This document shows, one piece after another, positions 6,501-40,485 of a stretch of DNA of 64,000 nt; the first letter of the stretch is position 1, and every line of letters starts with the position of its first letter. The DNA is from a virus. A program made the translations under genes and the position numbers. The notes under the pieces were generated by a model. It saw nothing but the letters and a program-made list of their open reading frames with translations. It did no database searches and was not told the origin of the DNA. The stretch is from positions 1 to 64,000 of IMG/VR virus record IMGVR_UViG_3300044716_000844; one strand, 5' to 3'.

Positions 6501-9054
6501 TGTGCTACAAGACATATCACTTACCTTTGACGCGTTTGGCCACGTAACCGGTCGTACTATTACGTCAACCGATCTAGATCTGAGATACCCACAAACATCA
6601 TTCACAAACATTGCAGTAGCTGGTCAAAGTACAGTTATCTCTGATAGTTTGACAGATACCCTTACTCTTGTTGGTGCTGGAATTACGACTATCACCACAA
6701 ATGCTACGACCGATACTATCACTATCACTGCGACTGAAGCTGATACTCTTGCTTCAGTAACATCAAGAGGCAATACGACTACAAATAGCATTACTGTGAA
6801 TGATATAAACGCTAATAACGCTGTTATCTCAGGTGGTCTTACAGTATCAGGTGGTCTTACAGTATCAGGCGATCTTACCGTATCAGGTACTACGACATAT
6901 ATTAATACTCAAACTCTAAATGTTGGAGATAATATTGTTACGCTTAATGCTGATGTAACCGGTGCTCCTAACCAAAATGCTGGCGTTGAAATCGAGCGGG
7001 GCGATGCGAATAACGCCGTAGTACTTTGGAATGAAAGTACTGATCGTTGGACGTTCACTAACAATGGCGTCAACTACTTCAATATTCCAGTATCAAGCGA
7101 ATACGATAACTATACTTCTTGGACTATTCAAGACGGTGGCGCTAACACATACACTATCACTTCTGGCGATACTCTGCAGATTGCATCTGGTACGTATATC
7201 ACATCTCTCTTAGCAGCAGACGACATACTTACCATTAGCCACAACAACACGACTCGGTCAGATACTACATCTACAGCTTCGTCAACCTATGCTGGTACTT
7301 TCACAGCGGTTGATGGTGTTACAACGAACGCGACAGGCCATATCACCGCAGTTAACGTTAAGACTGTAACTCTTCCAGCTGGTACAAGCCTTACTACAAC
7401 TGCAGGTACCACAGCAGGTCCAGTTATTAACTCTTCGACCGGTACTGGAGTTACTATTCCTTCTGCTTCGAATACTGCGTCTGGTATCATCACAACCGCC
7501 GCGCAAAATATCGCAGGAGCAAAAACTTTTGAATCAACCATTATTGGTTCGATCAATGGCAATGCGAACACAGCAACAGCGCTTCAAACACCAAGATTTA
7601 TTAACGCTGTAAGTTTCAATGGTACTGCAAACGTTGAGATTAATACACTTCGCACCACAAGTGGTGCGAATATTATTGACGGCACAGCACAATCTCTGCC
7701 TGTTAACCATCTACAAGTTCGAGCCGCGAATACTGCACAAGATGTTCTTATCACAACTGCCGGATCTGACACAAACGTTAACCTTAGTGTTCAGACAAAG
7801 GGTACTGGTTCAATTGCTCTTGATACCGGCGTCGGAGCTGGTAACATCGATATAAAACCTGGTACCGGTACACTTCGTGTTTGGGATAATACTGCCACGA
7901 ACTGGCATTCAGTTGTAGTCGGCGAACTTGCTGCAAACAGAACCATTACACTTCCAGATGGCAACGTAACACTTCAAACCGGTACAATGGCAATCACTGG
8001 TGGTACTCTAGCTCAGTTTGCAGCTACTACCTCATCTGCGCTTGCTGGTGTTATTTCAGATGAAACTGGTACTGGATCATTAGTATTCAGCGCGTCACCA
8101 ACATTTACTGGAACACCTCTAGCTCCAACTGCAGCTGTAGGCACGAACACTACTCAGATCGCTACAACTGCCTTTGTGAACGCAGAGATTGCTAATGATA
8201 TTGTAACTAAGGCTAATATCGCGTCACCGACATTTACTGGAACACCTCTAGCTCCAACCGCAGCAGTCGGGACAAATACCACACAGATTGCTACTACTGC
8301 CTTTGTGAACGCAGAGATTGCTGCTGACATTGTAGTTAAGGCTGATGTTGCTTCTCCAACCTTTACCGGTGTAGTAACTGCTCCAAGATTAAGCCTAACT
8401 TCTACGACTGAGGCAAACACTACTTCAACTGGCCACGCTTTGCAAATTGGCCTTTTCGATAATATTCATCTCGTTATGGATAATAATGAGATTCAAGCAC
8501 GTTTAGACGACACTGCATCAACACTTAACTTAAATGTTGATGGTGGAAATGTTACAATTGGAGCCTCGACTTCTAATATCGATCTAAGAGGAACTACTCA
8601 AGCTCTCGATATTATCCCATCTGTTAACAATACTTACGATCTTGGTTCGCCTTTATCGCGTTGGGCAGTTATGTATGGTACTGCTACATCTGCACGTTAC
8701 GCCGACCTTGCAGAAAAGTATCTTGCTGATGATGAATACCCAGTAGGTACAGTAATGAGCGTTGGTGGAGAAGCCGAAGTAACAGCAGCTACACCTGAAA
8801 CTGCTCATTCAGTCATCGGTGTTGTTTCGGAAAACCCAGCTTATCTTATGAACGATGGCTTAGAAGGCGGCACCGCAATTGCACTTAAGGGTAGAGTTCC
8901 AGTCAAGATTATTGGAACCGTGAAAAAGGGAGACAGATTGACTCCATCCTCTGAGAAAGGTTTTGCAGAAGTTAATAATTCATCTGCTGCATGGACCTTT
9001 GCAATCGCGCTAGCAGATAGCGACAACGGCTTGGTGGAAGCGATTATTTTATGA
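3595..9054 (+). CDS. Long tail-fibre/spike-like protein with C-terminal intramolecular chaperone (Peptidase_G2-like)
   Basis: 1819 aa, T/A/N/G/S-rich with internal repeats. The C-terminal YADLAEKY...GVVSENPAYLMN...IALKGRVPVK matches the autocleaving chaperone of trimeric fibres. Confidence 0.75.
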   Translation: MAKAHIYLAAGANVEATDTFASWIDTTNALVFDMGTVVLTSVSQPQPNVTVGGYTTGNAHLQGILSANTLVASNNLRGGSVSIPGDLTVVSNTIFSESPLVRISANTDNFTVNSNNTTFTSNVAINSSKTVLISAANTTINAGQLFVRTNSEFTGTRVDIDGTTFDVTSNTIFTSATFNANADVITLGFNGSDALTVNAVSDFNANVNIDGVLFTVTSTNTTIGDSGTDKFNVIAESIFSANATFNGALVNITSANTTIGDAPADRLNVNAVSDFNANVNIDGILTQTANAIFSGALVNITSANTTIGDAPTDVLNVNATSDFNANVNIDGILTQTANAIFSGALVNITSANTTIGDAPTDALNVNAVSDFNANVNVDGIFTVANSATVSNTLTVNVQANTASLMVRDLTATRIPYVGVAGEIVDSANVTFSGTNLNIIGTANVTSNANVGGTFGVTGAATLASTLAVTGVATFSSNAVFSDNDYIVVGTGADLQIYHDGSHSYITDAGTGNLKIDASQLDIQTSNSTATETMATFVRDGAVTLFHDNTARLATSGTGVSVTGTLGVSTNATVSGTLNVAGVTTLANTTVGAAPTDVFNVNAVSDFNANVNVDGILTVVNSATISNTLTVNTQANTASLMVRDLTATRIPYVGVGGEIVDSANVTFSGTNLNVIGTANVTSNANVGGTFGVTGAATLASTLSVTGTTSTTAINASGLVDVTNATDATSTTAAALKTAGGLAVAKKLYVGGIVEASANVNITGTGNRISAPDAAITNNMTVGGTATINNLTVTGTTILNTGDAQLSLNNATTAHSTVTDDLTLTNATIIGSVVPDVNNSYDIGTGSLNWKTVYANNVVANVAWSSITDKPDPVVTVTLTGDVQGTASATLTDLSSNTISISTTIQPNSVALGTDTTGNYVGTLSVTTPGVANGSSGLTFTGVAGEGTIAAIAHANTSTVTNLSVDNSAGNVLQDISLTFDAFGHVTGRTITSTDLDLRYPQTSFTNIAVAGQSTVISDSLTDTLTLVGAGITTITTNATTDTITITATEADTLASVTSRGNTTTNSITVNDINANNAVISGGLTVSGGLTVSGDLTVSGTTTYINTQTLNVGDNIVTLNADVTGAPNQNAGVEIERGDANNAVVLWNESTDRWTFTNNGVNYFNIPVSSEYDNYTSWTIQDGGANTYTITSGDTLQIASGTYITSLLAADDILTISHNNTTRSDTTSTASSTYAGTFTAVDGVTTNATGHITAVNVKTVTLPAGTSLTTTAGTTAGPVINSSTGTGVTIPSASNTASGIITTAAQNIAGAKTFESTIIGSINGNANTATALQTPRFINAVSFNGTANVEINTLRTTSGANIIDGTAQSLPVNHLQVRAANTAQDVLITTAGSDTNVNLSVQTKGTGSIALDTGVGAGNIDIKPGTGTLRVWDNTATNWHSVVVGELAANRTITLPDGNVTLQTGTMAITGGTLAQFAATTSSALAGVISDETGTGSLVFSASPTFTGTPLAPTAAVGTNTTQIATTAFVNAEIANDIVTKANIASPTFTGTPLAPTAAVGTNTTQIATTAFVNAEIAADIVVKADVASPTFTGVVTAPRLSLTSTTEANTTSTGHALQIGLFDNIHLVMDNNEIQARLDDTASTLNLNVDGGNVTIGASTSNIDLRGTTQALDIIPSVNNTYDLGSPLSRWAVMYGTATSARYADLAEKYLADDEYPVGTVMSVGGEAEVTAATPETAHSVIGVVSENPAYLMNDGLEGGTAIALKGRVPVKIIGTVKKGDRLTPSSEKGFAEVNNSSAAWTFAIALADSDNGLVEAIIL
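4140..4740 (+). repeat. Intragenic tandem repeats (~48 aa / 144 bp)
   Basis: TTIGD.P.D.LNVNAVSDFNANVNIDG recurs; an identical ~53-bp stretch begins at 4477 and at 4621. Confidence 0.85.
4684..5703 (+). repeat. Duplicated ~100-aa module in the fibre gene
   Basis: QANTASLMVRDLTATRIPYVGV.GEIVDSANVTFSGTNLN.IGTANVTSNANVGGTFGVTGAATLASTL occurs twice (~4684-4998 and ~5389-5703). Confidence 0.85.
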
Positions 9055-9551
9055 TAACAACTGATCAAGCGTATGGGTTCCTTTCCCATACGCTTCTATA
9101 TGAACAAAAGCTTGTAAAAGCTATTGATGCACAACACTTACAACATGATGTATTTAACTTCGGCGATCTTATTCGTCACAGAGCAAATGGCAGTTCAATC
9201 AAAGTTGAAGGTATGGAAAGATTCTCAACTGAGATCTTTAACCAAGGCCGATTATACGCCAAGTCTTACTTACATGACGGACCAGTCACGTGCCACATGT
9301 TCATTTCTCCTGCTGGATCACCATCCTTTCCAATGCATACCGACCCAGACCACGTCGTGATTCATTGCTGTGAAGGTATTAAGAGGATGCAGATAGTAGA
9401 TAGTACTATTGATATTCATCCTGGGTCGTACGTATATATACCATATAATACTCCGCACATAGCACTAAATGAATATGATGCTCTTACACTGAGTTTTGGA
9501 TTAGAGCGATTTTTGAAGGATAAGATGAATGAACTGGATGTTCTATCTTAA
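9051..9551 (+). CDS. JmjC/cupin-type Fe(II)/2OG oxygenase (ROXA/YcfD-like)
   Basis: FPMHTDPDHV (HxD), EGIKR and YIPYNTPHIA (distal His); ATGA overlap with the fibre gene stop. Confidence 0.7.
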   Translation: MITTDQAYGFLSHTLLYEQKLVKAIDAQHLQHDVFNFGDLIRHRANGSSIKVEGMERFSTEIFNQGRLYAKSYLHDGPVTCHMFISPAGSPSFPMHTDPDHVVIHCCEGIKRMQIVDSTIDIHPGSYVYIPYNTPHIALNEYDALTLSFGLERFLKDKMNELDVLS

Positions 9552-10548
9552 AACTACCGAAACATGTAATCTGAATTGCAGTCATTGTTTCACGAATGGT
9601 ATTAATGGTGCTAAGGTGTATTTTGATCCGGTCAAAGTATCTAACTGGATTCATGCATTCCATAAAGAAAAATTTAAACCAGATGATACTGCACACTATG
9701 AGTTCCATGGTGGCGAACCGTTTTTAGTACCAGTATCACAGATGAAATATGTCGTTGACTCTTGTAAGCATCTGTCACCGAATCAATCTTTTGGCGCAAC
9801 AACGAATCTTGTCTATAAGTTAAAACAAGAGCACATCGATTTTATCAAAAACGATCTTGGTGGTAGACTAGGTACGTCATGGGATCCTAAAATTAGATTC
9901 GCAAATTCTAAGCAATACAGGCTGTGGTACGATAACCTGAAAACTTTGCAGCGTGAAGGTATACATATCAAGCTGTTTATTAGTGTCACGAAACAGACGA
10001 TTGCTTACAAGCCTATCGTATTGCTGAGATGGATTCGCAGATTAGGTGTACAAGAAGTGTCATTCGAAAGGCTTACAAGCAACGGATCGGCAAAGCTATT
10101 TCCAGAGATATTTCCAACGAACATTGAACTCGACAACTGGTTCCTTGAGATGCACAATGATACAGTTAAATACGATGCTCGAGGCTGGTTCGACAACGAA
10201 AACCTAGAAAATGTATATGCAAAATTTGAAAACGGTTATAACTCATGCGGTACCTTTTGTCGTGATTGTGAAGAAAAGATTTTTACACTTAACGCAGACG
10301 GTACTATCTCAGGATGTCCAAATGCTGCACCCGAGTTTAACTTTGGATCGATAAACGATTCTATCACGAGTATTATAAATAGTCCAAGAAGGATTCTCAA
10401 TATCGTTGAAGAACGAAGTAGAAATCCTAAGTGCTATTCTTGTCCGGTGTTTAAATACTGTAACGGTGATTGTCACCAGCTTGAATGGCAAGGAGATGTT
10501 TGTGGAGCTCCGAAGAGTTTAATGAAGCTATTGGCTAAGGTAGGATAA
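9529..10548 (+). CDS. Radical SAM/SPASM protein
   Basis: CNLNCSHC; HGGEPF; C-terminal CGTFCRDC...GTISGC...CYSCPVFKYCNGDC...C. Confidence 0.92.
   Translation: MNWMFYLKTTETCNLNCSHCFTNGINGAKVYFDPVKVSNWIHAFHKEKFKPDDTAHYEFHGGEPFLVPVSQMKYVVDSCKHLSPNQSFGATTNLVYKLKQEHIDFIKNDLGGRLGTSWDPKIRFANSKQYRLWYDNLKTLQREGIHIKLFISVTKQTIAYKPIVLLRWIRRLGVQEVSFERLTSNGSAKLFPEIFPTNIELDNWFLEMHNDTVKYDARGWFDNENLENVYAKFENGYNSCGTFCRDCEEKIFTLNADGTISGCPNAAPEFNFGSINDSITSIINSPRRILNIVEERSRNPKCYSCPVFKYCNGDCHQLEWQGDVCGAPKSLMKLLAKVG
10374..10381 (+). promoter_or_regulatory. Possible T4-type late promoter inside the rSAM gene, ~170 bp upstream of the Cys-His tail protein
   Basis: Exact TATAAATA, but intragenic in AT-rich DNA, so it could be chance. 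Confidence 0.4.
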
Positions 10549-10550
10549 GT

Positions 10551-20464: not shown

Positions 20465-20841
20465 AGCAAGAGATATATCACAGACTTAACAATGAATATC
20501 GAGATGATTTAAATAACGTTGATATCGTTATAAGTAATGAGTACAACAATATCATTCGTCACTTCCACGAAAAAGTCGATCAGTGGATATATCCGGCAAA
20601 GAGTTATTTTGTAGCTGTATGTTATGCCAGTTGGATAGCAGAAGATTATAACGAAGATCTCATTGAACTTCTTAGAGATCCCATGTTACTTGCAGGTAAT
20701 GATCCATACTTTAAAACATACGATGAAGATCCTGAGACTTATGATAAGATATTAAGAGATATTGAGTTGCCATTAAAAATGAATGGCATGGTGCCAGATG
20801 TAAAGGAATATTATGATGAAGAGATTGCCTTTCGGATTTAA
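20446..20841 (+). CDS. Hypothetical protein in rSAM cluster
   Basis: 131-aa acidic ORF overlapping both neighbours. Confidence 0.6.
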   Translation: MQEWKIKQEIYHRLNNEYRDDLNNVDIVISNEYNNIIRHFHEKVDQWIYPAKSYFVAVCYASWIAEDYNEDLIELLRDPMLLAGNDPYFKTYDEDPETYDKILRDIELPLKMNGMVPDVKEYYDEEIAFRI

Positions 20842-21385
20842 CGATCTTTACCCGACTTCTGTGTATCTTTCGAAGATTAGTAAAGAAGACTGTGATACTA
20901 TATTAACTGGTGTGATGTCGAATGAAGTTGTTACATCGCCAAGTGATGATGACGCGTCACTTATCATACATAAGATTCCGAGACTGAAAGAACTTGCTGA
21001 AGAAAAGTTTGCTGAGTATCTTGATAAGGTATATGGTATAAGCATATACGACTATAACTTTAAATTTAAGTCATGGTTAACTGGTAACGGCGATGGGTAT
21101 AGTATGGATACACATAACCACGCAGGTGCACCGTTCGTTTCAGTCTTTTACATTATGGCGGAACATACTGATAAGGGTGGAGAAATTGTTTTCAACGATC
21201 CTCGAGTAAATGCAAACCGCGGATATACACTTGAGTTTCAACCACAGTTTAAGCCAACTGTTCATATGCCACAGACTGGTGATGTTGTAATTTTTCCAGG
21301 GTTTCTTTATCATCAAGTGAGAAAATATAATGCAAACCTTCGTATCGCTCTTCCAGTAGATCTATTCTTATACCATCAAGACTAA
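20813..21385 (+). CDS. 2OG-Fe(II) oxygenase-like protein (HxH type)
   Basis: THNHAG...SVFYI...GGEIVFNDPR...GDVVIFPGFLYHQV...RIAL. Confidence 0.85.
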   Translation: MMKRLPFGFNDLYPTSVYLSKISKEDCDTILTGVMSNEVVTSPSDDDASLIIHKIPRLKELAEEKFAEYLDKVYGISIYDYNFKFKSWLTGNGDGYSMDTHNHAGAPFVSVFYIMAEHTDKGGEIVFNDPRVNANRGYTLEFQPQFKPTVHMPQTGDVVIFPGFLYHQVRKYNANLRIALPVDLFLYHQD

Positions 21386-21414: not shown

Positions 21415-21422
21415 TATAAATA
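21415..21422 (+). promoter_or_regulatory. T4-type late promoter
   Basis: Intergenic TATAAATA followed by a GAGGAG RBS and ATG at 21447. Confidence 0.85.
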
Positions 21423-21446: not shown

Positions 21447-21779
21447 ATGGCTATTAAAGCAAACTTAGTTGTCGATCAAGGTACGACATTTACTGCTACT
21501 ATAGATCTAACAGATCCTAGTGGTGTAGTGTTTAATCTTACAAACTATACTGTAGCTGCGCAGATGAGAAAGAATTATACATCTTCAACTGCTACAACGT
21601 TCGTAGCAAACCATACTGGCGCTGGTGGTGAAATTAACTTATTGTTATCTGCTAATACGACGAGCGTATTAGCTCCAGGTAGATACCTCTACGACGTAGA
21701 AATTACTTCACCTGGTGGAGCCGTTACTCGTGTGGTAGAAGGTATTGTTACAGTAACTCCTGGAATAACGAGAGCTTAA
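21447..21779 (+). CDS. Virion structural protein (fibre/baseplate attachment-type, Ig-like)
   Basis: LVVDQGTTF...GRYLYDVEI...TRVVEGIVTVTP, a gene type common before fibres in T4-like phages. Confidence 0.65.
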   Translation: MAIKANLVVDQGTTFTATIDLTDPSGVVFNLTNYTVAAQMRKNYTSSTATTFVANHTGAGGEINLLLSANTTSVLAPGRYLYDVEITSPGGAVTRVVEGIVTVTPGITRA

Positions 21780-37711: not shown

Positions 37712-38119
37712 ATGTCTACGCTAAGAGCTGATCAAATAACTAATTCTGCTGGTACCGGTGCTCCGTTATTTCCAAATGGTGCGAACCTTTCAGGCGGTGT
37801 ATCTATCGGTTATAGAAACATTCCTCCAGTTGGAACAAAAACATCTAGTTATACTCTAGCAGTAGGTGATGTAGGAAAGTATGTCCAAGTTGGAACTAGT
37901 GGTAGCATAACAATACCAAACGCTACTTTTAGCGAAGGTGACGCAATCACTATTTTTAATAACACTACAGGGAATATTACTGTTACATGTACCATTACAA
38001 CAGCTTATATAGCTGGAACAGATACAGATAAAAACTCTGTCACATTAGCAACCCGCGGAATAGCGAATATCTTTTTCATCAGTGGCACAGTATGTGTGAT
38101 TACAGGAAACGTTACATAA
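37712..38119 (+). CDS. Fibre-associated structural protein
   Basis: Start MSTLRADQI; GYRNIP...SYTLAVGDVGK motif. Confidence 0.6.
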   Translation: MSTLRADQITNSAGTGAPLFPNGANLSGGVSIGYRNIPPVGTKTSSYTLAVGDVGKYVQVGTSGSITIPNATFSEGDAITIFNNTTGNITVTCTITTAYIAGTDTDKNSVTLATRGIANIFFISGTVCVITGNVT

Positions 38120-38898
38120 TGTCAGGTATTATACAAATGATGTTAGGTGCGCCATTTGCCTCTGCAGCATTTTTGGCGACAATCTCTTCTAACCAAACAG
38201 ATCTCAATTTACGAACATGGGCTCTTGCAAATGGTTGGAATGGAACCGCACAAGCTACTATCACTGTCGGCTCAGGTGTTATTATATCTGGAAGTGTTCA
38301 GGGCAACAGCACTGCAGCATTGACGATTGATGGATCTTGGCCAGGCGGGATTACTCTTATCAATAGTGGAGTAATCGCTGGTAGAGGTGGAACAGGAGGC
38401 GCCGGCGGCAGTGCCTCTAGTACTAACGGTGTAAATGGAAATATTGGTGGCACCGCTTTGACTGTTAGTGTCTCTGCATCTGTAAACAACGCTGGGACAA
38501 TTGCTGGAGGAGGCGGAGGCGGGGGTGGTGGGGGCCTATCGCTTGGCGGAGCACCTGGCGGTGATGATAGTGTTATCTCGTATTATGGTGGTTGTGGTGG
38601 TGGCGGGGGTGCTTCTAGCAATACAACTGCTGCCGGAGGCGCTGCAGGTAGCAATGATGGCCTTCCAGGTGCCAGTGGCAATGCTGGTGGATCAGGAACA
38701 TATAATTCTGCGGGACTTGGTGGGACCAAGACACTACATGCTTCTGGAGGAAACGGTGGGTCTTGGGGTGCAACAGGGTCGAATGGCGGCGCTGGTAATT
38801 ATACAGCAGGTCTAGGCGGTGCGGGTGGTAGAGCTGTTAATGGTAATGCTAGCATAACTTGGATTGCGACTGGAACAAGATTAGGTTCTATAGTATAA
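38119..38898 (+). CDS. Glycine-rich adhesin, T-even gp38-like
   Basis: LINSGVIAGRGGTGG, NNAGTIAGGGGGGGGGG and GGAGGRAVNGNASITW..TGTRLG resemble the polyglycine motifs of gp38. Confidence 0.65.
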   Translation: MSGIIQMMLGAPFASAAFLATISSNQTDLNLRTWALANGWNGTAQATITVGSGVIISGSVQGNSTAALTIDGSWPGGITLINSGVIAGRGGTGGAGGSASSTNGVNGNIGGTALTVSVSASVNNAGTIAGGGGGGGGGGLSLGGAPGGDDSVISYYGGCGGGGGASSNTTAAGGAAGSNDGLPGASGNAGGSGTYNSAGLGGTKTLHASGGNGGSWGATGSNGGAGNYTAGLGGAGGRAVNGNASITWIATGTRLGSIV

Positions 38899-38908
38899 GG
38901 ATAAAAAA

Positions 38909-39157
38909 ATGGATTTGCAATACAATTATAAAATAATCAAAGTAGATGAAGAAAATAAAGTGATGGAGATAGTATATACTCCCCAAGAACCTTCACATCT
39001 AGGAGAATATACTGTCGGCGCAAGGCTGCCGTATGTAGGTGAGAGTTTAGAGTCTGTAGTACAGATGTATGCACCCCTAGGGTTGTGGCATCAACAAATA
39101 TACGAATTTGATACAGTAATTGAAGGATCTGAAGGATCTCTTATCTGCACTGTTTAA
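38909..39157 (+). CDS. Hypothetical protein
   Basis: 82 aa with AAGGA RBS. Confidence 0.55.
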   Translation: MDLQYNYKIIKVDEENKVMEIVYTPQEPSHLGEYTVGARLPYVGESLESVVQMYAPLGLWHQQIYEFDTVIEGSEGSLICTV

Positions 39158-39161
39158 AATT

Positions 39162-39785
39162 ATGAATATACATTTATTGAACCATCCGTTTCCTCACGTT
39201 GTGATATATGACTTTTACACTGAAAAAGAGTTAGAAGATATTAAGCACGAATTGAAGTTCTTGACTAAGCCCGATAAGTTGATGCCCCCGGGTATTATGC
39301 ATGGCGGAGGAGGACCGACTAATCATCACGCTCTATTGTTAGAGGATGCTTACACAAACAGAAAAATTTCAGACATACTTACTATATTCAAAAGAAAGTA
39401 TGATAAAAATCTTGTAGATTTAATAGTTGATAAGTTTCCTGAGTTTATGAAAATCAAACACATAAACAGTAGAATAACAAAAGTCAGATATTACTACAAT
39501 GATGATGCTTATCCTCCACATATTGATATTACTAGAGACTTTCTAGCATTTTCATATTTCCATTCTCACCCACGCAAATTTAGCGGCGGTGAATTACATT
39601 GCACTGATTACAATTATACTTTAGATTGTTCTGATAACGTATTTGTGCTACTACCGTCATATGTAAAACACGAAGTTTTGAAAGTACAAATAGAAGATGA
39701 CGCATATTTTAATGGTAATGGGCGATACTGCGTATCGCAATTCCTCGACGTGATCCCGCACCAAATTGATAAAAAAATTGCATGA
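39162..39785 (+). CDS. 2OG-Fe(II) oxygenase
   Basis: YPPHID; FSGGEL; LLPSYVKHEV; GRYCVSQF; probable start MNIHLL. Confidence 0.8.
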   Translation: MNIHLLNHPFPHVVIYDFYTEKELEDIKHELKFLTKPDKLMPPGIMHGGGGPTNHHALLLEDAYTNRKISDILTIFKRKYDKNLVDLIVDKFPEFMKIKHINSRITKVRYYYNDDAYPPHIDITRDFLAFSYFHSHPRKFSGGELHCTDYNYTLDCSDNVFVLLPSYVKHEVLKVQIEDDAYFNGNGRYCVSQFLDVIPHQIDKKIA

Positions 39786-40485
39786 GATTAAGCAAATATA
39801 TCACGTAGCAAGATGCGGATCCACTCTCATGGGTTCGCTTCTTTCAACAGTTTCTAAGACCTATCTCGAGCCTGAACATGGTATTGAGATGGCTAATACT
39901 GGAAAGATATACGATCAATACGAAGGTTCTGTAGTAAAATTTCAAAGCTTGTCTTTAATGAAACCTATACTGTTAAATGGACCAAAAGTATTTCTGTATC
40001 GGCCACTCGCTCAACACTTACACAAAATATCCAACGTACAGTCATATTGGTTAACCTTTCGGGCTGAATACTTAAGGACAAACTACAAGGAATATGACGT
40101 ATGGACTCCAACTTCTGATATAGAAATGATAGCTTATCACTGGATTCGATCAGTTCATGAGATGTCTCAACATACCAATGTGTTATGGATTGAATCGAAC
40201 AATTTGTTTATGCAACCAAAAATGACTATGGATTCTGTTTGTGACCATTTTAATTTTCCTAAGATTAGTGATTTTTCATTATCGCAAGTTGATGTTAAGA
40301 AAATGATGATCAACGGTAGATCTAGTGCGTGTGAGATAAATATAGCAGAAGCAACTCGTGTTTCAGTTGATCATGGCGTCATTCATACAAATGAAGCATC
40401 TACTGAAATTTTTAGTTTATGTAATATGATCGGAGAAACGTATAAGGTTTCTAATTCACTATTATACGGCAACAACGAATATTAG
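39766..40485 (+). CDS. Sulfotransferase-like protein
   Basis: N-terminal HVARCGSTLMGSLL (5'-PSB-like RxGST); FLYRP (3'-PB-like). Confidence 0.55.
   Translation: MIKKLHEIKQIYHVARCGSTLMGSLLSTVSKTYLEPEHGIEMANTGKIYDQYEGSVVKFQSLSLMKPILLNGPKVFLYRPLAQHLHKISNVQSYWLTFRAEYLRTNYKEYDVWTPTSDIEMIAYHWIRSVHEMSQHTNVLWIESNNLFMQPKMTMDSVCDHFNFPKISDFSLSQVDVKKMMINGRSSACEINIAEATRVSVDHGVIHTNEASTEIFSLCNMIGETYKVSNSLLYGNNEY

What the first reader, a model, noticed from the sequence alone, without database searches (positions are those of the whole stretch)
9051..21385. Phage-encoded RiPP-like modification cluster (6 radical SAM + 4 Fe/2OG oxygenases) inside the virion module
Seen: 15 contiguous genes that overlap or sit a few bases apart, the first overlapping the fibre gene stop. 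They encode five CxxxCxxC enzymes with SPASM-like Cys tails, one B12-type rSAM, one JmjC-like and three other 2OG oxygenases, four unknowns, and one protein ending in (CHxx)3. Established: rSAM/SPASM enzymes, class B methylases and 2OG hydroxylases are typical RiPP maturases (ranthipeptides, sactipeptides, triceptides). Seen: no recognisable transporter, leader peptidase or immunity gene, and the cluster lies between fibre genes. Inference: a dedicated late-expressed pathway that heavily modifies a virion protein or a lysis-released peptide, rather than a host-metabolism gene set. I know of no characterised phage system like this.
Basis: partly seen in the sequence, partly recalled or inferred. 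Interest (0 to 1): 0.95.

Follow-up and report, generated by a model that had tools for sequence, protein, structure and literature searches.

The report
Radical-SAM cassette maturing a virion protein
A freshwater T4-like phage carries, among its tail-fibre genes, 15 genes rich in radical-SAM and iron oxygenase enzymes built around one protein with a near-invariant Cys-His repeat end, a widespread and unstudied system also found in giant phages and predatory bacteria that probably finishes a virus-particle protein chemically.

Summary
Window 9051-21385 holds 15 tightly packed + strand genes: six radical-SAM enzymes (one B12-type), a JmjC-like cupin, three 2OG oxygenases, four unknowns, and a 216-aa protein (g3) ending (Cys-His-x-x)x3-R-G-R-R.

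The tail and the enzymes go together. All 58 IMG/VR loci with at least 9 kb upstream of a homologue of rSAM g12 encode such a tail. Of 82 tail-bearing loci with enough flank, 80 hold a CxxxCxxC enzyme. Of 267 g3 homologues, 252 keep the exact tail while their bodies diverge.

The core set (g2, g3, g4, g6, g12, g13, g14) recurs in Ralstonia, Burkholderia, Agrobacterium, Sinorhizobium and Pseudomonas jumbo phages, and in Bdellovibrionota chromosomes. In Agrobacterium phage Atu_ph07 the g3 homologue gp170 is in the published virion proteome and the adjacent enzymes are not.

Best reading (0.6): a dedicated maturation system for the C-terminal tail of a particle protein. The chemistry and the role are not shown.

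No held paper describes it. The nearest published system is the bacterial HXS antiphage system, and this cluster is not a member of it. Earlier follow-ups in this scan reported the same system on other genomes. I re-tested their main claims here. New here: in Bdellovibrionota the cluster sits next to fibre-chaperone (Peptidase_S74) genes.

The parts
9051..9551 (+). g1: small cupin / JmjC-like Fe(II) oxygenase (166 aa)
   Evidence: Pfam Cupin_2 30.5 bits and JmjC_2 26.3 bits, both above cut-off. HxD...H is visible in the translation. Homologues head the cluster in RSF1 (ORF069) and Atu_ph07 (gp172).
9529..10548 (+). g2: radical SAM/SPASM enzyme (339 aa), directly upstream of the substrate gene
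   Evidence: CxxxCxxC at residue 13, with no N-terminal extension. Nine C-terminal Cys. TIGR04085 SPASM 38.3 bits, above cut-off. Best partial matches are PapB, DynA and the anaerobic sulfatase maturase, all far below their cut-offs. 47-50% identical in RSF1 and Atu_ph07.
10551..11201 (+). g3: 216-aa candidate substrate and virion protein; globular alpha/beta body plus conserved tail
   Evidence: No Pfam or NCBIfam match. 612 clusters of relatives at 50% identity, all unnamed. AlphaFold2 pLDDT 82 and pTM 0.77; no solved fold matched. The Atu_ph07 homologue gp170 is in the virion proteome.
11151..11198 (+). Tail core: (Cys-His-x-x)x3-Arg-Gly-Arg-Arg, the last 16 codons of g3
   Evidence: C, H and R positions are invariant in 47 homologues. 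The exact tail is kept in 252 of 267 homologues found by homology. It is the only such motif in the 95.6-kb record.
11212..11940 (+). g4: conserved unknown (242 aa, pI 4.5), follows the substrate gene in every lineage that has the g3-type body
   Evidence: phrog_20767 E 2e-56. Homologues in RSF1, Atu_ph07 and 14 of 15 Bdellovibrionota loci. AlphaFold2 pLDDT 91; no fold match (best Z 4.5 over 51 residues).
11928..13085 (+). g5: unknown (385 aa), weakly conserved
   Evidence: No family match. 23-34% identical relatives at the same position in many loci, including Bdellovibrionota.
13085..14137 (+). g6: radical SAM/SPASM-like enzyme (350 aa), core
   Evidence: CxxxCxxC at residue 24 and 8 C-terminal Cys. 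Pfam Radical_SAM 26.7 bits. 33-34% identical in RSF1 and Atu_ph07; present in 13 of 15 Bdellovibrionota loci.
14097..14648 (+). g7: unknown (about 183 aa), accessory
   Evidence: No family match. Relatives at 35-50% identity in a subset of loci.
14632..15684 (+). g8: divergent radical SAM enzyme with a 5-Cys C-terminal region
   Evidence: CxxxCxxC present. Weak Radical_SAM match, E 9e-3. Relatives in RSF1 (ORF074) and in 11 of 15 Bdellovibrionota loci.
15678..16274 (+). g9: 2OG-Fe(II) oxygenase, accessory
   Evidence: 2OG-FeII_Oxy_5 27.6 bits against a cut-off of 27. Rarely matched in other loci.
16276..17940 (+). g10: B12-binding radical SAM enzyme (554 aa), probable C-methyltransferase, accessory
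   Evidence: Radical_SAM 41.5 bits; B12-binding 30.1 bits, just under its cut-off. Partial KedN5-family match, 167.6 bits against 700. Only 24-47% identical relatives in other loci.
17930..18526 (+). g11: 2OG-Fe(II) oxygenase, accessory
   Evidence: 2OG-FeII_Oxy_3 37.1 bits.
18528..19565 (+). g12: radical SAM/SPASM enzyme (345 aa), the best-conserved core gene
   Evidence: Radical_SAM 43.3 bits. 54-62% identical in 15 cultured jumbo-phage records. 52-62% identical in Bdellovibrionota. 271 IMG/VR loci encode a relative.
19553..20464 (+). g13: short radical SAM enzyme (303 aa), core, always after g12
   Evidence: CxxxCxxC at residue 12 and 5 C-terminal Cys. 44-56% identical in RSF1 and Atu_ph07.
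20446..20841 (+). g14: small acidic unknown (131 aa), core, follows g13
   Evidence: phrog_20737 E 5.9e-40. Relatives in RSF1, Atu_ph07 and 14 of 15 Bdellovibrionota loci. No solved relative.
20813..21385 (+). g15: 2OG-Fe(II) oxygenase, common in the phage versions
   Evidence: 2OG-FeII_Oxy_5 40.5 bits. Relatives in RSF1 (ORF080) and in many IMG/VR loci.
10374..10381 (+). TATAAATA, a possible T4-type late promoter inside g2, 177 bases before g3 (uncertain)
   Evidence: There are 11 copies in the window, all on the + strand, against 4.1 expected on both strands. Most lie 25-45 bases before structural genes; this one does not.
21447..21779 (+). g16: 110-aa tail-fibre-assembly-like protein, a frequent neighbour of the cassette (context)
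   Evidence: phrog_1084 and phrog_3304 (L-shaped tail fibre assembly), E 6.5e-29 and 3.6e-25. A TATAAATA lies at 21415. Relatives flank the cassette in many loci.

Best explanation
The cluster is a self-contained protein-maturation system.

Proposed steps (all inferred):
- g3 is made as a folded protein of about 200 residues with a 16-residue unstructured C-terminal tail, (Cys-His-x-Ser/Asn)x3-Arg-x-Arg-Arg.
- Five mutually very divergent radical-SAM/SPASM-type enzymes (g2, g6, g8, g12, g13) each carry out a different radical reaction on that tail. g4 and g14 probably act as non-catalytic helpers.
- The most likely reactions are Cys-sulfur-to-carbon thioether links and His-to-C-beta (residue +2) cyclophane links.
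- In this phage an accessory set adds further changes: the B12 enzyme g10 (C-methylation), the JmjC-like g1 and the 2OG oxygenases g9, g11 and g15 (hydroxylation).
- The finished protein, now carrying a rigid, cross-linked, cationic end, is built into the virion, probably near the fibre and baseplate apparatus. The enzymes stay behind in the cell.

Shown here: the gene content, the tight two-way co-occurrence, the invariance of the tail, and virion presence of the homologue in one cultured phage.

Inferred: that the tail is the substrate, the type of chemistry, the place in the particle, and the biological role (host contact or genome entry).
For: 1. Enzyme-side co-occurrence: 58 of 58 IMG/VR loci with at least 9 kb upstream of a g12 homologue encode a CHxxCHxxCH-tailed ORF. 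Among the genome-contig loci, all 17 that hold at least 9 kb upstream of the g12 homologue, and 19 of the 24 with a real homologue, do so too; L152 is a 32% partial match with no other cluster gene.
2. Tail-side co-occurrence: 80 of 82 tail-bearing loci with at least 5 kb of flank hold one or more long CxxxCxxC ORFs, up to 8.
3. The tail is the conserved unit. 252 of 267 homologues keep it exactly, and at least 10 BLAST-separable body families carry the same tail.
4. The position after His+1 is Ser, Asn or Ala and never Gly, whereas the position before it tolerates Gly. This fits a need for a beta-carbon.
5. The non-B12 rSAMs start at the cluster-binding motif (residues 11-30) with no leader-recognition domain, and they have SPASM-type Cys tails. 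Their best partial HMM matches are peptide or protein maturases such as PapB, DynA, the sulfatase maturase, HxsB and HxsC.
6. Each rSAM is an ancient, separate orthologue. They are at most 27% alike to each other, yet g12 is 52-62% identical between phages and Bdellovibrionota.
7. Atu_ph07 gp170 (31.89 kDa, identical to my computed mass) gave 8 peptides and 35% coverage in purified virions. gp165, 168, 169, 171 and 172 are not listed.
8. Published precedents: His-C2 to C-beta links on H-x-x motifs (PMC11499958) and rSAM maturation of a protein with HxS repeats (PMC13128918).
Against: - No modification has been observed on any family member.
- The virion evidence comes from one distant phage (28% identity over the C-terminal part), from a PEG-purified stock in which 131 proteins were called.
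- The tail could work simply as a metal-binding or disulfide motif.
- No enzyme passes the cut-off of any characterised maturase family.
- Late expression is not shown. RNA-library contigs cover parts of the enzyme genes only, and they may be DNA carry-over.
- Five or six enzymes for a 16-residue tail is unusually many, so some may act on other targets such as the neighbouring fibre proteins.
Confidence: 0.6

Rival explanations
1. The tail is a plain metal-binding or disulfide-forming motif that holds an oligomer or a virion joint together. The radical-SAM and oxygenase enzymes act on something else, such as the neighbouring fibre proteins or a small molecule, and merely travel with it.
For: Three Cys and three His at i, i+4, i+8 spacing would line one face of a helix, and the model draws residues 204-215 as a low-confidence helix. 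Atu_ph07 gp170 is most abundant in the top gel fragment although it is 31.9 kDa, and the listed loading buffer names no reductant. The cluster sits among fibre genes here and next to Peptidase_S74 fibre-like genes in Bdellovibrionota.
Against: A simple ligand motif would not need to be invariant at the Ser and Arg positions, or at its distance to the stop codon. The enzymes keep company with the tail across at least 10 different bodies and in hosts without fibre-gene neighbours.
Confidence: 0.13
2. It is a true RiPP. The 200-residue body is an oversized leader, the 16-residue tail is the core, and the tail is cut off and released at lysis as a toxin, signal or metal chelator.
For: Leader-then-core order, with the core at the C-terminus and rSAM/SPASM enzymes adjacent, is the standard RiPP layout. 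The best HMM matches are RiPP maturases. Tandem pairs of short (about 127 aa) tail-bearing genes occur in many loci.
Against: No protease, transporter or immunity gene is conserved in any lineage. The body is a confidently folded, conserved domain and is found in virions. No RRE domain is present.
Confidence: 0.1
3. g3 is a scaffold on which the radical-SAM enzymes build a metal cluster or a protein-derived cofactor, with the Cys-His repeats as ligands, as in nitrogenase or hydrogenase cofactor assembly or in quinoprotein gamma subunits.
For: There are several non-redundant rSAM/SPASM enzymes plus small helper proteins. The ligand residues are invariant. Weak partial matches to the quinohemoprotein amine dehydrogenase maturase and to MoaA are among the NCBIfam rows.
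Against: No redox partner or catalytic subunit is conserved nearby. A cofactor scaffold has no obvious use in a virus particle. The matches are far below cut-off.
Confidence: 0.07
4. The enzymes modify phage DNA or nucleotides, or boost host metabolism, as genome papers on jumbo phages have guessed.
For: Annotation notes in phage genome papers say so (PMC8541153). RSF1 has two dihydrofolate-reductase-like genes inside its cluster.
Against: No nucleotide-binding, glycosylase, transferase or DNA-binding domain is found in any of the 15 proteins. The DHFR genes are absent from every other lineage. The obligate partner is a protein tail.
Confidence: 0.03

Closest known systems
HXS antiphage system (HxsA/B/C/D; Li et al., Nat Commun 2026, PMC13128918)
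   Same: A full-size protein, not a short peptide, carries His-x-Ser repeats. Two radical-SAM enzymes with a small helper protein mature it covalently (+8 Da on an S-H-R-S-S motif). The repeats are rich in basic residues.
   Different: [quoted passage not shown] Here each repeat starts with Cys, the tail is strictly C-terminal, there are 5-6 rSAMs plus oxygenases, and the carriers are phages and predatory bacteria. None of the proteins reaches the Hxs models.
Triceptide (three-residue cyclophane) synthases acting on His motifs, HaaB and HtkB (PMC11499958)
   Same: Three aromatic-x-x motifs with His first (H-A-S, H-A-N, H-S-S). The third residue always has a beta-carbon. rSAM/SPASM enzymes lie adjacent.
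   Different: Those systems use short precursors with leaders and one enzyme per motif type. The matches of g2, g12 and g13 to the cyclophane-synthase models are 16-28 bits against cut-offs of 310-445.
Ranthipeptide / SCIFF thioether maturases (PapB, CteB type) and sactisynthases
   Same: Regularly spaced Cys in a C-terminal core. The best single NCBIfam match of g2 is PapB (E 6.8e-15).
   Different: 55 bits against a cut-off of 340. There is no RRE domain. The acceptor would be Ser or Asn at +3 rather than Asp or Glu at +4. The substrate is a folded protein.
Anaerobic sulfatase-maturing enzyme (anSME)
   Same: Minimal rSAM+SPASM architecture of about 340-370 aa with no leader-binding domain, acting on a protein. 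g2 aligns end to end with TIGR03942. The last repeat, C-H-x-S-R, has Arg at +4 as in the sulfatase motif.
   Different: 51.5 bits against a cut-off of 349. The sulfatase motif needs Pro or Ala at +2. No sulfatase is present.
2OG-Fe(II) oxygenase genes scattered among fibre genes of T4-like cyanophages (own knowledge of the comparative-genomics literature)
   Same: The same Pfam families (2OG-FeII_Oxy_5/_3, TIGR02466-like) in the same genome region of a related phage type.
   Different: Those genes have not been tied to a defined substrate. Here they are accessories of a radical-SAM core with a candidate substrate.

Membership tests
HXS system | HxsB-type radical SAM maturase (TIGR03978, cut-off 370 bits) | tested here: not met
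   The best match is g2, at 33.6 bits over the N-terminal half only.
HXS system | HxsC-type radical SAM maturase (TIGR03977, cut-off 267.9 bits) | tested here: not met
   g12 scores 27.4 bits and g13 22.3 bits, both on the N-terminal 80-90 residues only.
HXS system | HxsA effector and HxsD helper recognised by their NCBIfam models | tested here: not met
   g3, g4, g5, g7 and g14 gave no NCBIfam match at E <= 0.01.
HXS system | His-x-Ser repeats in the matured protein | tested here: met
   g3 has three H-x-S/N units, each preceded by Cys.
Radical SAM superfamily (PF04055) | CxxxCxxC cluster motif and a Pfam score above 29.5 bits | tested here: met
   The motif is present in all six proteins. 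g10 (41.5 bits) and g12 (43.3 bits) pass. g2, g6, g8 and g13 score 16.6-27.0 bits, below the cut-off.
SPASM subfamily (TIGR04085) | C-terminal 7-8 Cys domain for two auxiliary clusters; cut-off 27 bits | tested here: inconclusive
   g2 passes at 38.3 bits. g12 (22.7) and g6 (16.6) are below the cut-off but have 8 Cys in the right spacing. g8 and g13 have 5 Cys.
Class B (cobalamin) radical SAM methylases | N-terminal B12-binding domain plus a radical SAM domain; family models such as KedN5 (cut-off 700 bits) | tested here: inconclusive
   For g10, PF02310 scores 30.1 against 32.1 and Radical_SAM 41.5. KedN5 scores 167.6 against 700, over residues 44-361.
Ranthipeptide maturases (PapB family, NF047865) | Score of 340 bits or more; N-terminal RRE domain; Cys-x3-Asp/Glu core | tested here: not met
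   g2 scores 55.1 bits. The cluster motif starts at residue 13, so there is no room for an RRE. The core has Ser or Asn at +3.
Triceptide synthases (3-CyFE: YhhB, AmcB, GrrM/OscB models) | Enzyme passes a cyclophane-synthase model; precursor has aromatic-x-x motifs | tested here: not met
   The enzymes score 16-28 bits against cut-offs of 310-445. The substrate motif is present.
RiPP (general definition) | Leader removed by a protease, and the core released as the product | not testable with these tools
   No protease or exporter is conserved in the cluster. The fate of the tail is unknown.
2OG-Fe(II) oxygenases / JmjC cupins | Pfam score above cut-off | tested here: met
   g1 Cupin_2 30.5 and JmjC_2 26.3; g9 27.6; g11 37.1; g15 40.5.

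The most novel reading that the evidence does not exclude
The matured tail is a new kind of radical-SAM-forged 'warhead' on cell-entry machinery: a rigid, cationic, possibly metal-holding knot at the end of a particle protein. It would act in the host envelope during adsorption or genome entry. Predatory Bdellovibrionota would use it with their fibre or pilus-like proteins during prey invasion. It would then be the attacker-side counterpart of the bacterial HXS system, which uses rSAM-matured HxS repeats in the periplasm to stop incoming phage DNA.
Probability: 0.22. Interest if true: 0.92.

Novelty: new variant of a known kind. Interest (0 to 1): 0.8.

Why it matters
If the reading holds, large phages of several unrelated lineages spend 8-12 kb on a private enzymatic workshop that chemically finishes one particle protein. 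No such step is in the textbook picture of phage assembly.

It would add several uncharacterised radical-SAM families, each probably with its own reaction, to known enzyme chemistry. It would also define a portable 16-residue tag that directs them.

The shared use by phages and by bacteria that invade other bacteria points to a role in getting through a cell envelope. The likeness to the HXS defence effector raises the question of whether attack and defence draw on the same chemistry.

Cultured carriers exist (Atu_ph07, RSF1/RSL2, FLC6/FLC8, S13, pPa_SNUABM_DT01, Phosso), so the idea can be tested directly.

Tried and rejected
- Near-identity DNA search of the cluster against cultured phages found no match.
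- Protein search with the B12 enzyme g10 found only one weak hit, so g10 is not part of the shared core.
- Fold searches of the g3 model found no match: Foldseek PDB had nothing at E <= 0.001, VIA-align wide gave a best Z of 4.2, and BFVD returned only unnamed family members.
- Fold searches of the g4 model gave a best Z of 4.5, over a 51-residue beta-alpha-beta piece only.
- Profile and sequence searches against PDB sequences for g1, g2, g12 and the alignments of g3, g4 and g14 found nothing meaningful.
- The ESM Atlas had no usable hit for g4.
- The complex prediction of g3 with g4 gave no verdict (score 0.00, controls not run) and counts neither way.
- An apparent 245-base insertion in g12 homologues of L153-L155 was only the tool joining the N-terminus of the next paralogue. 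There is no intron.
- A metatranscriptome run (X20) holds short contigs on parts of g2, g4/g5, g5, g7/g8, g9/g10, g10 and g11 but none on g3. Being contigs from an RNA library that may hold DNA, they do not show transcription.
- The virion proteome papers for RP31, FLC6, S13 and pPa_SNUABM_DT01 gave no data on the g3 homologue.
- DNA-modification and host-metabolism readings were rejected for lack of any supporting domain.

Full report
**What is in the window.** The window is the first 64 kb of a 95.6-kb IMG/VR virus record, estimated 55% complete. It has the T4-type late-gene order: terminase, sheath, portal, major head protein, UvsW-type helicase and a gp46-like nuclease. Its portal is 61% identical to those of the Sinorhizobium phiM12 group and 52% identical to those of cyanomyoviruses. 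Near-identical DNA occurs in lake-water metagenomes of many studies. One independent run holds the whole cluster with about 21 base differences. This is therefore a freshwater T4-like myovirus of unknown host.

**The observation.**
- Positions 9051-21385 hold 15 + strand ORFs that overlap or lie within 10 bases of each other. The first overlaps the stop of an 1819-aa fibre-like gene.
- Six ORFs carry CxxxCxxC. All six match Pfam Radical_SAM, two of them above the gathering score.
- g2, g6 and g12 have 8-9 C-terminal Cys in SPASM spacing. g8 and g13 have five.
- g10 has a B12-binding N-domain and a partial KedN5-type match.
- g1 is a small cupin/JmjC protein. g9, g11 and g15 are 2OG-Fe(II) oxygenases, and all four are above their cut-offs.
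- g4, g5, g7 and g14 match nothing with a named function.
- g3 is a Thr/Gly/Ala/Ser-rich protein of 216 aa. All three of its Cys and three of its four His lie in the last 16 residues, (C-H-x-x)x3-R-G-R-R.

Three start codons are probably later than the longest ORFs suggest.

**The cluster is a conserved unit, not a local accident.**
- g12 is 54-62% identical to proteins of 15 cultured jumbo-phage records: Ralstonia RSF1/RSL2 and relatives, Burkholderia FLC6/FLC8/S13, Agrobacterium Atu_ph07, Sinorhizobium Phosso and Pseudomonas pPa_SNUABM_DT01.
- In RSF1 and Atu_ph07 the homologues of g1, g2, g4, g6, g12, g13 and g14 are present, mostly in the same order.
- The gene after the g2 homologue encodes a protein with a very different body whose last 16 residues follow the same C-H-x-S x3, R-x-R-R pattern.

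**Test from the tail side.**
- A degenerate 51-base DNA pattern for the tail found at least 119 IMG/VR loci with 142 tail-bearing ORFs.
- Their lengths cluster near 127 aa (often as tandem pairs), 180-200 aa and 257 aa.
- Of the 82 loci with at least 5 kb on one side of the tail, 80 hold at least one long CxxxCxxC ORF, and 45 hold three or more.

**Test from the enzyme side.**
- 271 IMG/VR loci encode a g12 relative. Of the 80 fetched, all 58 with at least 9 kb upstream contain a CHxxCHxxCH-tailed ORF.
- In species-representative genomes, all 17 loci that hold at least 9 kb upstream of the g12 homologue contain one, and 19 of the 24 with a real homologue do.
- The rSAMs therefore do not commonly occur without the Cys-His protein.

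**The tail is the conserved element.**
- g3 has 513 relatives in one search and 612 clusters at 50% identity in another. All are unnamed and without Pfam domains.
- In an alignment of 47 relatives at 50-78% identity, the invariant columns include every Cys and His of the tail, one Ser and the three Arg.
- Of 267 homologues collected by homology, 252 end with the exact pattern. The rest are fragments or one-residue variants.
- With the tail removed, the tail-bearing proteins fall into at least 10 BLAST-separable body groups.
- In the 164 complete ORFs, the residue two places after each His is Ser, Asn or Ala (rarely Gln, Lys or Arg) and never Gly. The residue directly after His tolerates Gly, in 72 of 164 at the third repeat. 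The C, H and R positions of the pattern-derived loci are fixed by the search itself, but these x positions are not.

**Core and accessories.**
- Across T4-like phages, jumbo phages and Bdellovibrionota, the recurring set is g2, g3, g4, g6, g8 (or a g8-like enzyme), g12, g13 and g14.
- The cupin g1 and a g15-type oxygenase are common in phages and rare in Bdellovibrionota.
- g7, g9, g10 and g11 are variable. The nearest relatives of this phage (87-94% identity in g12) lack g7, g8, g9 and g11, and their B12 enzyme is only about 25% identical to g10.
- This window therefore holds one of the richer versions.
- The rSAM paralogues are at most 27% alike to each other over parts of their length, while each is well conserved across lineages. 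This argues for separate, non-redundant reactions.

**It is not only a phage system.**
- Fifteen of the genome-contig loci come from Bdellovibrionota assemblies on contigs of up to 300 kb.
- One cluster is flanked by genes for NrdR, serine hydroxymethyltransferase and a beta-ketoacyl synthase.
- Another homologue lies 2.2 Mb into a contig.
- In a sample of 301 species genomes of that phylum, 10 have a g12 homologue at E <= 1e-100.
- In 9 of the 15 loci, two or three paralogous proteins of about 350 aa lie near the cluster, at varying places and orientations. They have a C-terminal Peptidase_S74 (endosialidase chaperone) domain and sit with a conserved 205-aa unknown. Housekeeping neighbours are not conserved.
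- One of these proteins also has a prepilin-type N-terminal methylation motif.
- The Bdellovibrionota tail proteins show no obvious signal peptide.

**What the parts look like.**
- The g3 body folds with good confidence (pLDDT 82, pTM 0.77) into a compact alpha/beta domain. The tail has low confidence.
- No solved structure matches the g3 model, and in the viral model library only unnamed family members match.
- g4 folds with pLDDT 91 and also has no recognisable fold.
- The five non-B12 rSAMs begin at or near the cluster-binding motif (residues 11-30), leaving no room for the N-terminal leader-recognition domain usual in RiPP maturases. In this they resemble the anaerobic sulfatase maturase, which acts on proteins.
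- Their best NCBIfam rows are peptide or protein maturases (PapB, DynA, sulfatase maturase, DarE, HxsB/HxsC, cyclophane synthases), all far below the curated cut-offs.
- They are thus new families within the peptide/protein-modifying branch, not members of a characterised one.

**Virion evidence.**
- Supplementary Table S5 of the Atu_ph07 paper (PMC6102473) lists gp170, 31.89 kDa, with 8 unique peptides and 35% coverage in purified particles.
- The translation of the tail-bearing gene in the RefSeq record gives exactly 31.89 kDa.
- The adjacent enzymes and helpers (gp165, 168, 169, 171, 172) are not in the table.
- gp170 was found in gel fragments 1-9 and was most abundant in fragment 1, where proteins of 87-127 kDa run. 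Other 29-32 kDa proteins peak in fragments 7-8.
- The described loading buffer names no reducing agent. The high apparent size may therefore reflect disulfides, metal bridges or covalent links, and I cannot tell which.
- This is one phage, a PEG-purified stock, and a distant homologue.

**Expression.**
- The T4 late-promoter word TATAAATA occurs 11 times, all on the + strand, mostly 25-45 bases before structural genes.
- The copy at 10374 lies 177 bases before g3, inside g2, and could be chance.
- The cluster has no late motif before g1 and is probably read through from the fibre gene.
- Late expression is plausible but not shown.

**Most likely mechanism.**
- The rSAM set acts on the tail of g3.
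- Two published chemistries fit the motif. One is the His-C2 to C-beta link on His-x-x units (HaaB, HtkB; PMC11499958), which fits the absence of Gly two places after His. The other is a Cys-sulfur-to-carbon thioether of the PapB or sactisynthase kind (best match of g2).
- The B12 enzyme would add methyl groups and the oxygenases hydroxyl groups. The JmjC-like g1 may act on the Arg or His residues.
- The product would be a compact, cross-linked, basic end on a particle protein.
- Its role is open. The gene context (fibre genes here, baseplate and fibre regions in jumbo phages, S74 fibre-like genes in predatory bacteria) points to cell-envelope contact or entry.

**Comparison with what is known.**
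- The nearest published system is HXS (PMC13128918). There, two rSAMs and a helper mature a full-size protein with five HxS repeats, adding +8 Da on S-H-R-S-S, and the product blocks phage DNA entry in the periplasm.
- The logic is alike. Membership fails on every model tested, and the composition, substrate and carriers all differ.
- Genome papers on the cultured carriers only list the genes.
- The full-text searches run here turned up no paper that assigns this cluster a function.

**Earlier work in this scan.** A look-up by sequence showed that follow-up agents had already reported the same system on at least four other genomes. They reached the same broad conclusions and cited the HXS paper. 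I had reached the tail invariance, the jumbo-phage synteny and the Bdellovibrionota loci before that look-up. From the notes I took the lead to the HXS paper and the hint that a virion proteome existed, and I checked both at source.

**Verdict.** This is a real, widespread and undescribed maturation system. The chemistry, the timing and the role remain to be shown.

Noticed in passing
L134-L151 (Bdellovibrionota loci), e.g. L136:18211-19254 (-), L148:17001-20688, L143:4342-5388 (-): In 9 of 15 Bdellovibrionota loci the cluster lies near 2-3 paralogous proteins of about 350 aa with a C-terminal Peptidase_S74 (endosialidase chaperone) domain, plus a conserved 205-aa unknown. Their position and orientation vary. 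One S74 protein also has a prepilin N-methylation motif.
   Followed up: partly
window 38092-40485: A second small tailoring set: a gp38-like tail-fibre adhesin (Pfam GP38, 26.7 bits), then a 2OG-Fe(II) oxygenase-like gene (39120-39785) and an overlapping unknown (39766-40485).
   Followed up: no
window 11974-12001: A perfect sigma-70 consensus (TTGACA, 16 bases, TATAAT; 12 of 12) lies on the + strand just inside the start of g5. It could give earlier transcription of the downstream enzymes, or it could be chance.
   Followed up: no
L142:160-360 (Dysosmobacter segnis BX15, 4.3-kb contig): A Firmicutes isolate contig encodes a protein whose end holds three blocks of C-H-x-S repeats separated by short linkers before the final A-R-G-R-R. 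It is followed by g4, g6 and g12 homologues. This is an expanded-tail variant outside Proteobacteria and their phages.
   Followed up: no
e.g. L009, L034, L042, L075, L230: Many IMG/VR contigs carry two tandem genes of about 127 aa with the same tail but a different body. They sit with g1, g2, g6, g8-like, g12, g13 and g14 homologues but no g4, which suggests that g4 serves the g3-type body rather than the tail.
   Followed up: partly
window 9051-21385 versus the rest: The cluster has 38.2% G+C against 43.2% for the rest of the window. g3 alone has 45.9%, like the structural genes, while g4 and g14 have about 33.5%.
   Followed up: no
window 13702-14048 and 15020-15521: Contigs of one lake metagenome (X3) skip or replace about 345 and 500 bases at the g6/g7 junction and inside g8. 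Related strains therefore differ in these accessory parts.
   Followed up: no
window 15678-16274 and 20813-21385: g9 and g15 show H-N-H where the usual H-x-D/E of the 2OG oxygenase iron site is expected. g11 has H-D-D. This was read from the translations only.
   Followed up: no
L007 (RSF1 record 80329-81618): The RSF1-type cluster is interrupted by an HNH endonuclease gene and two dihydrofolate-reductase-like genes, which are absent from all other lineages examined.
   Followed up: no
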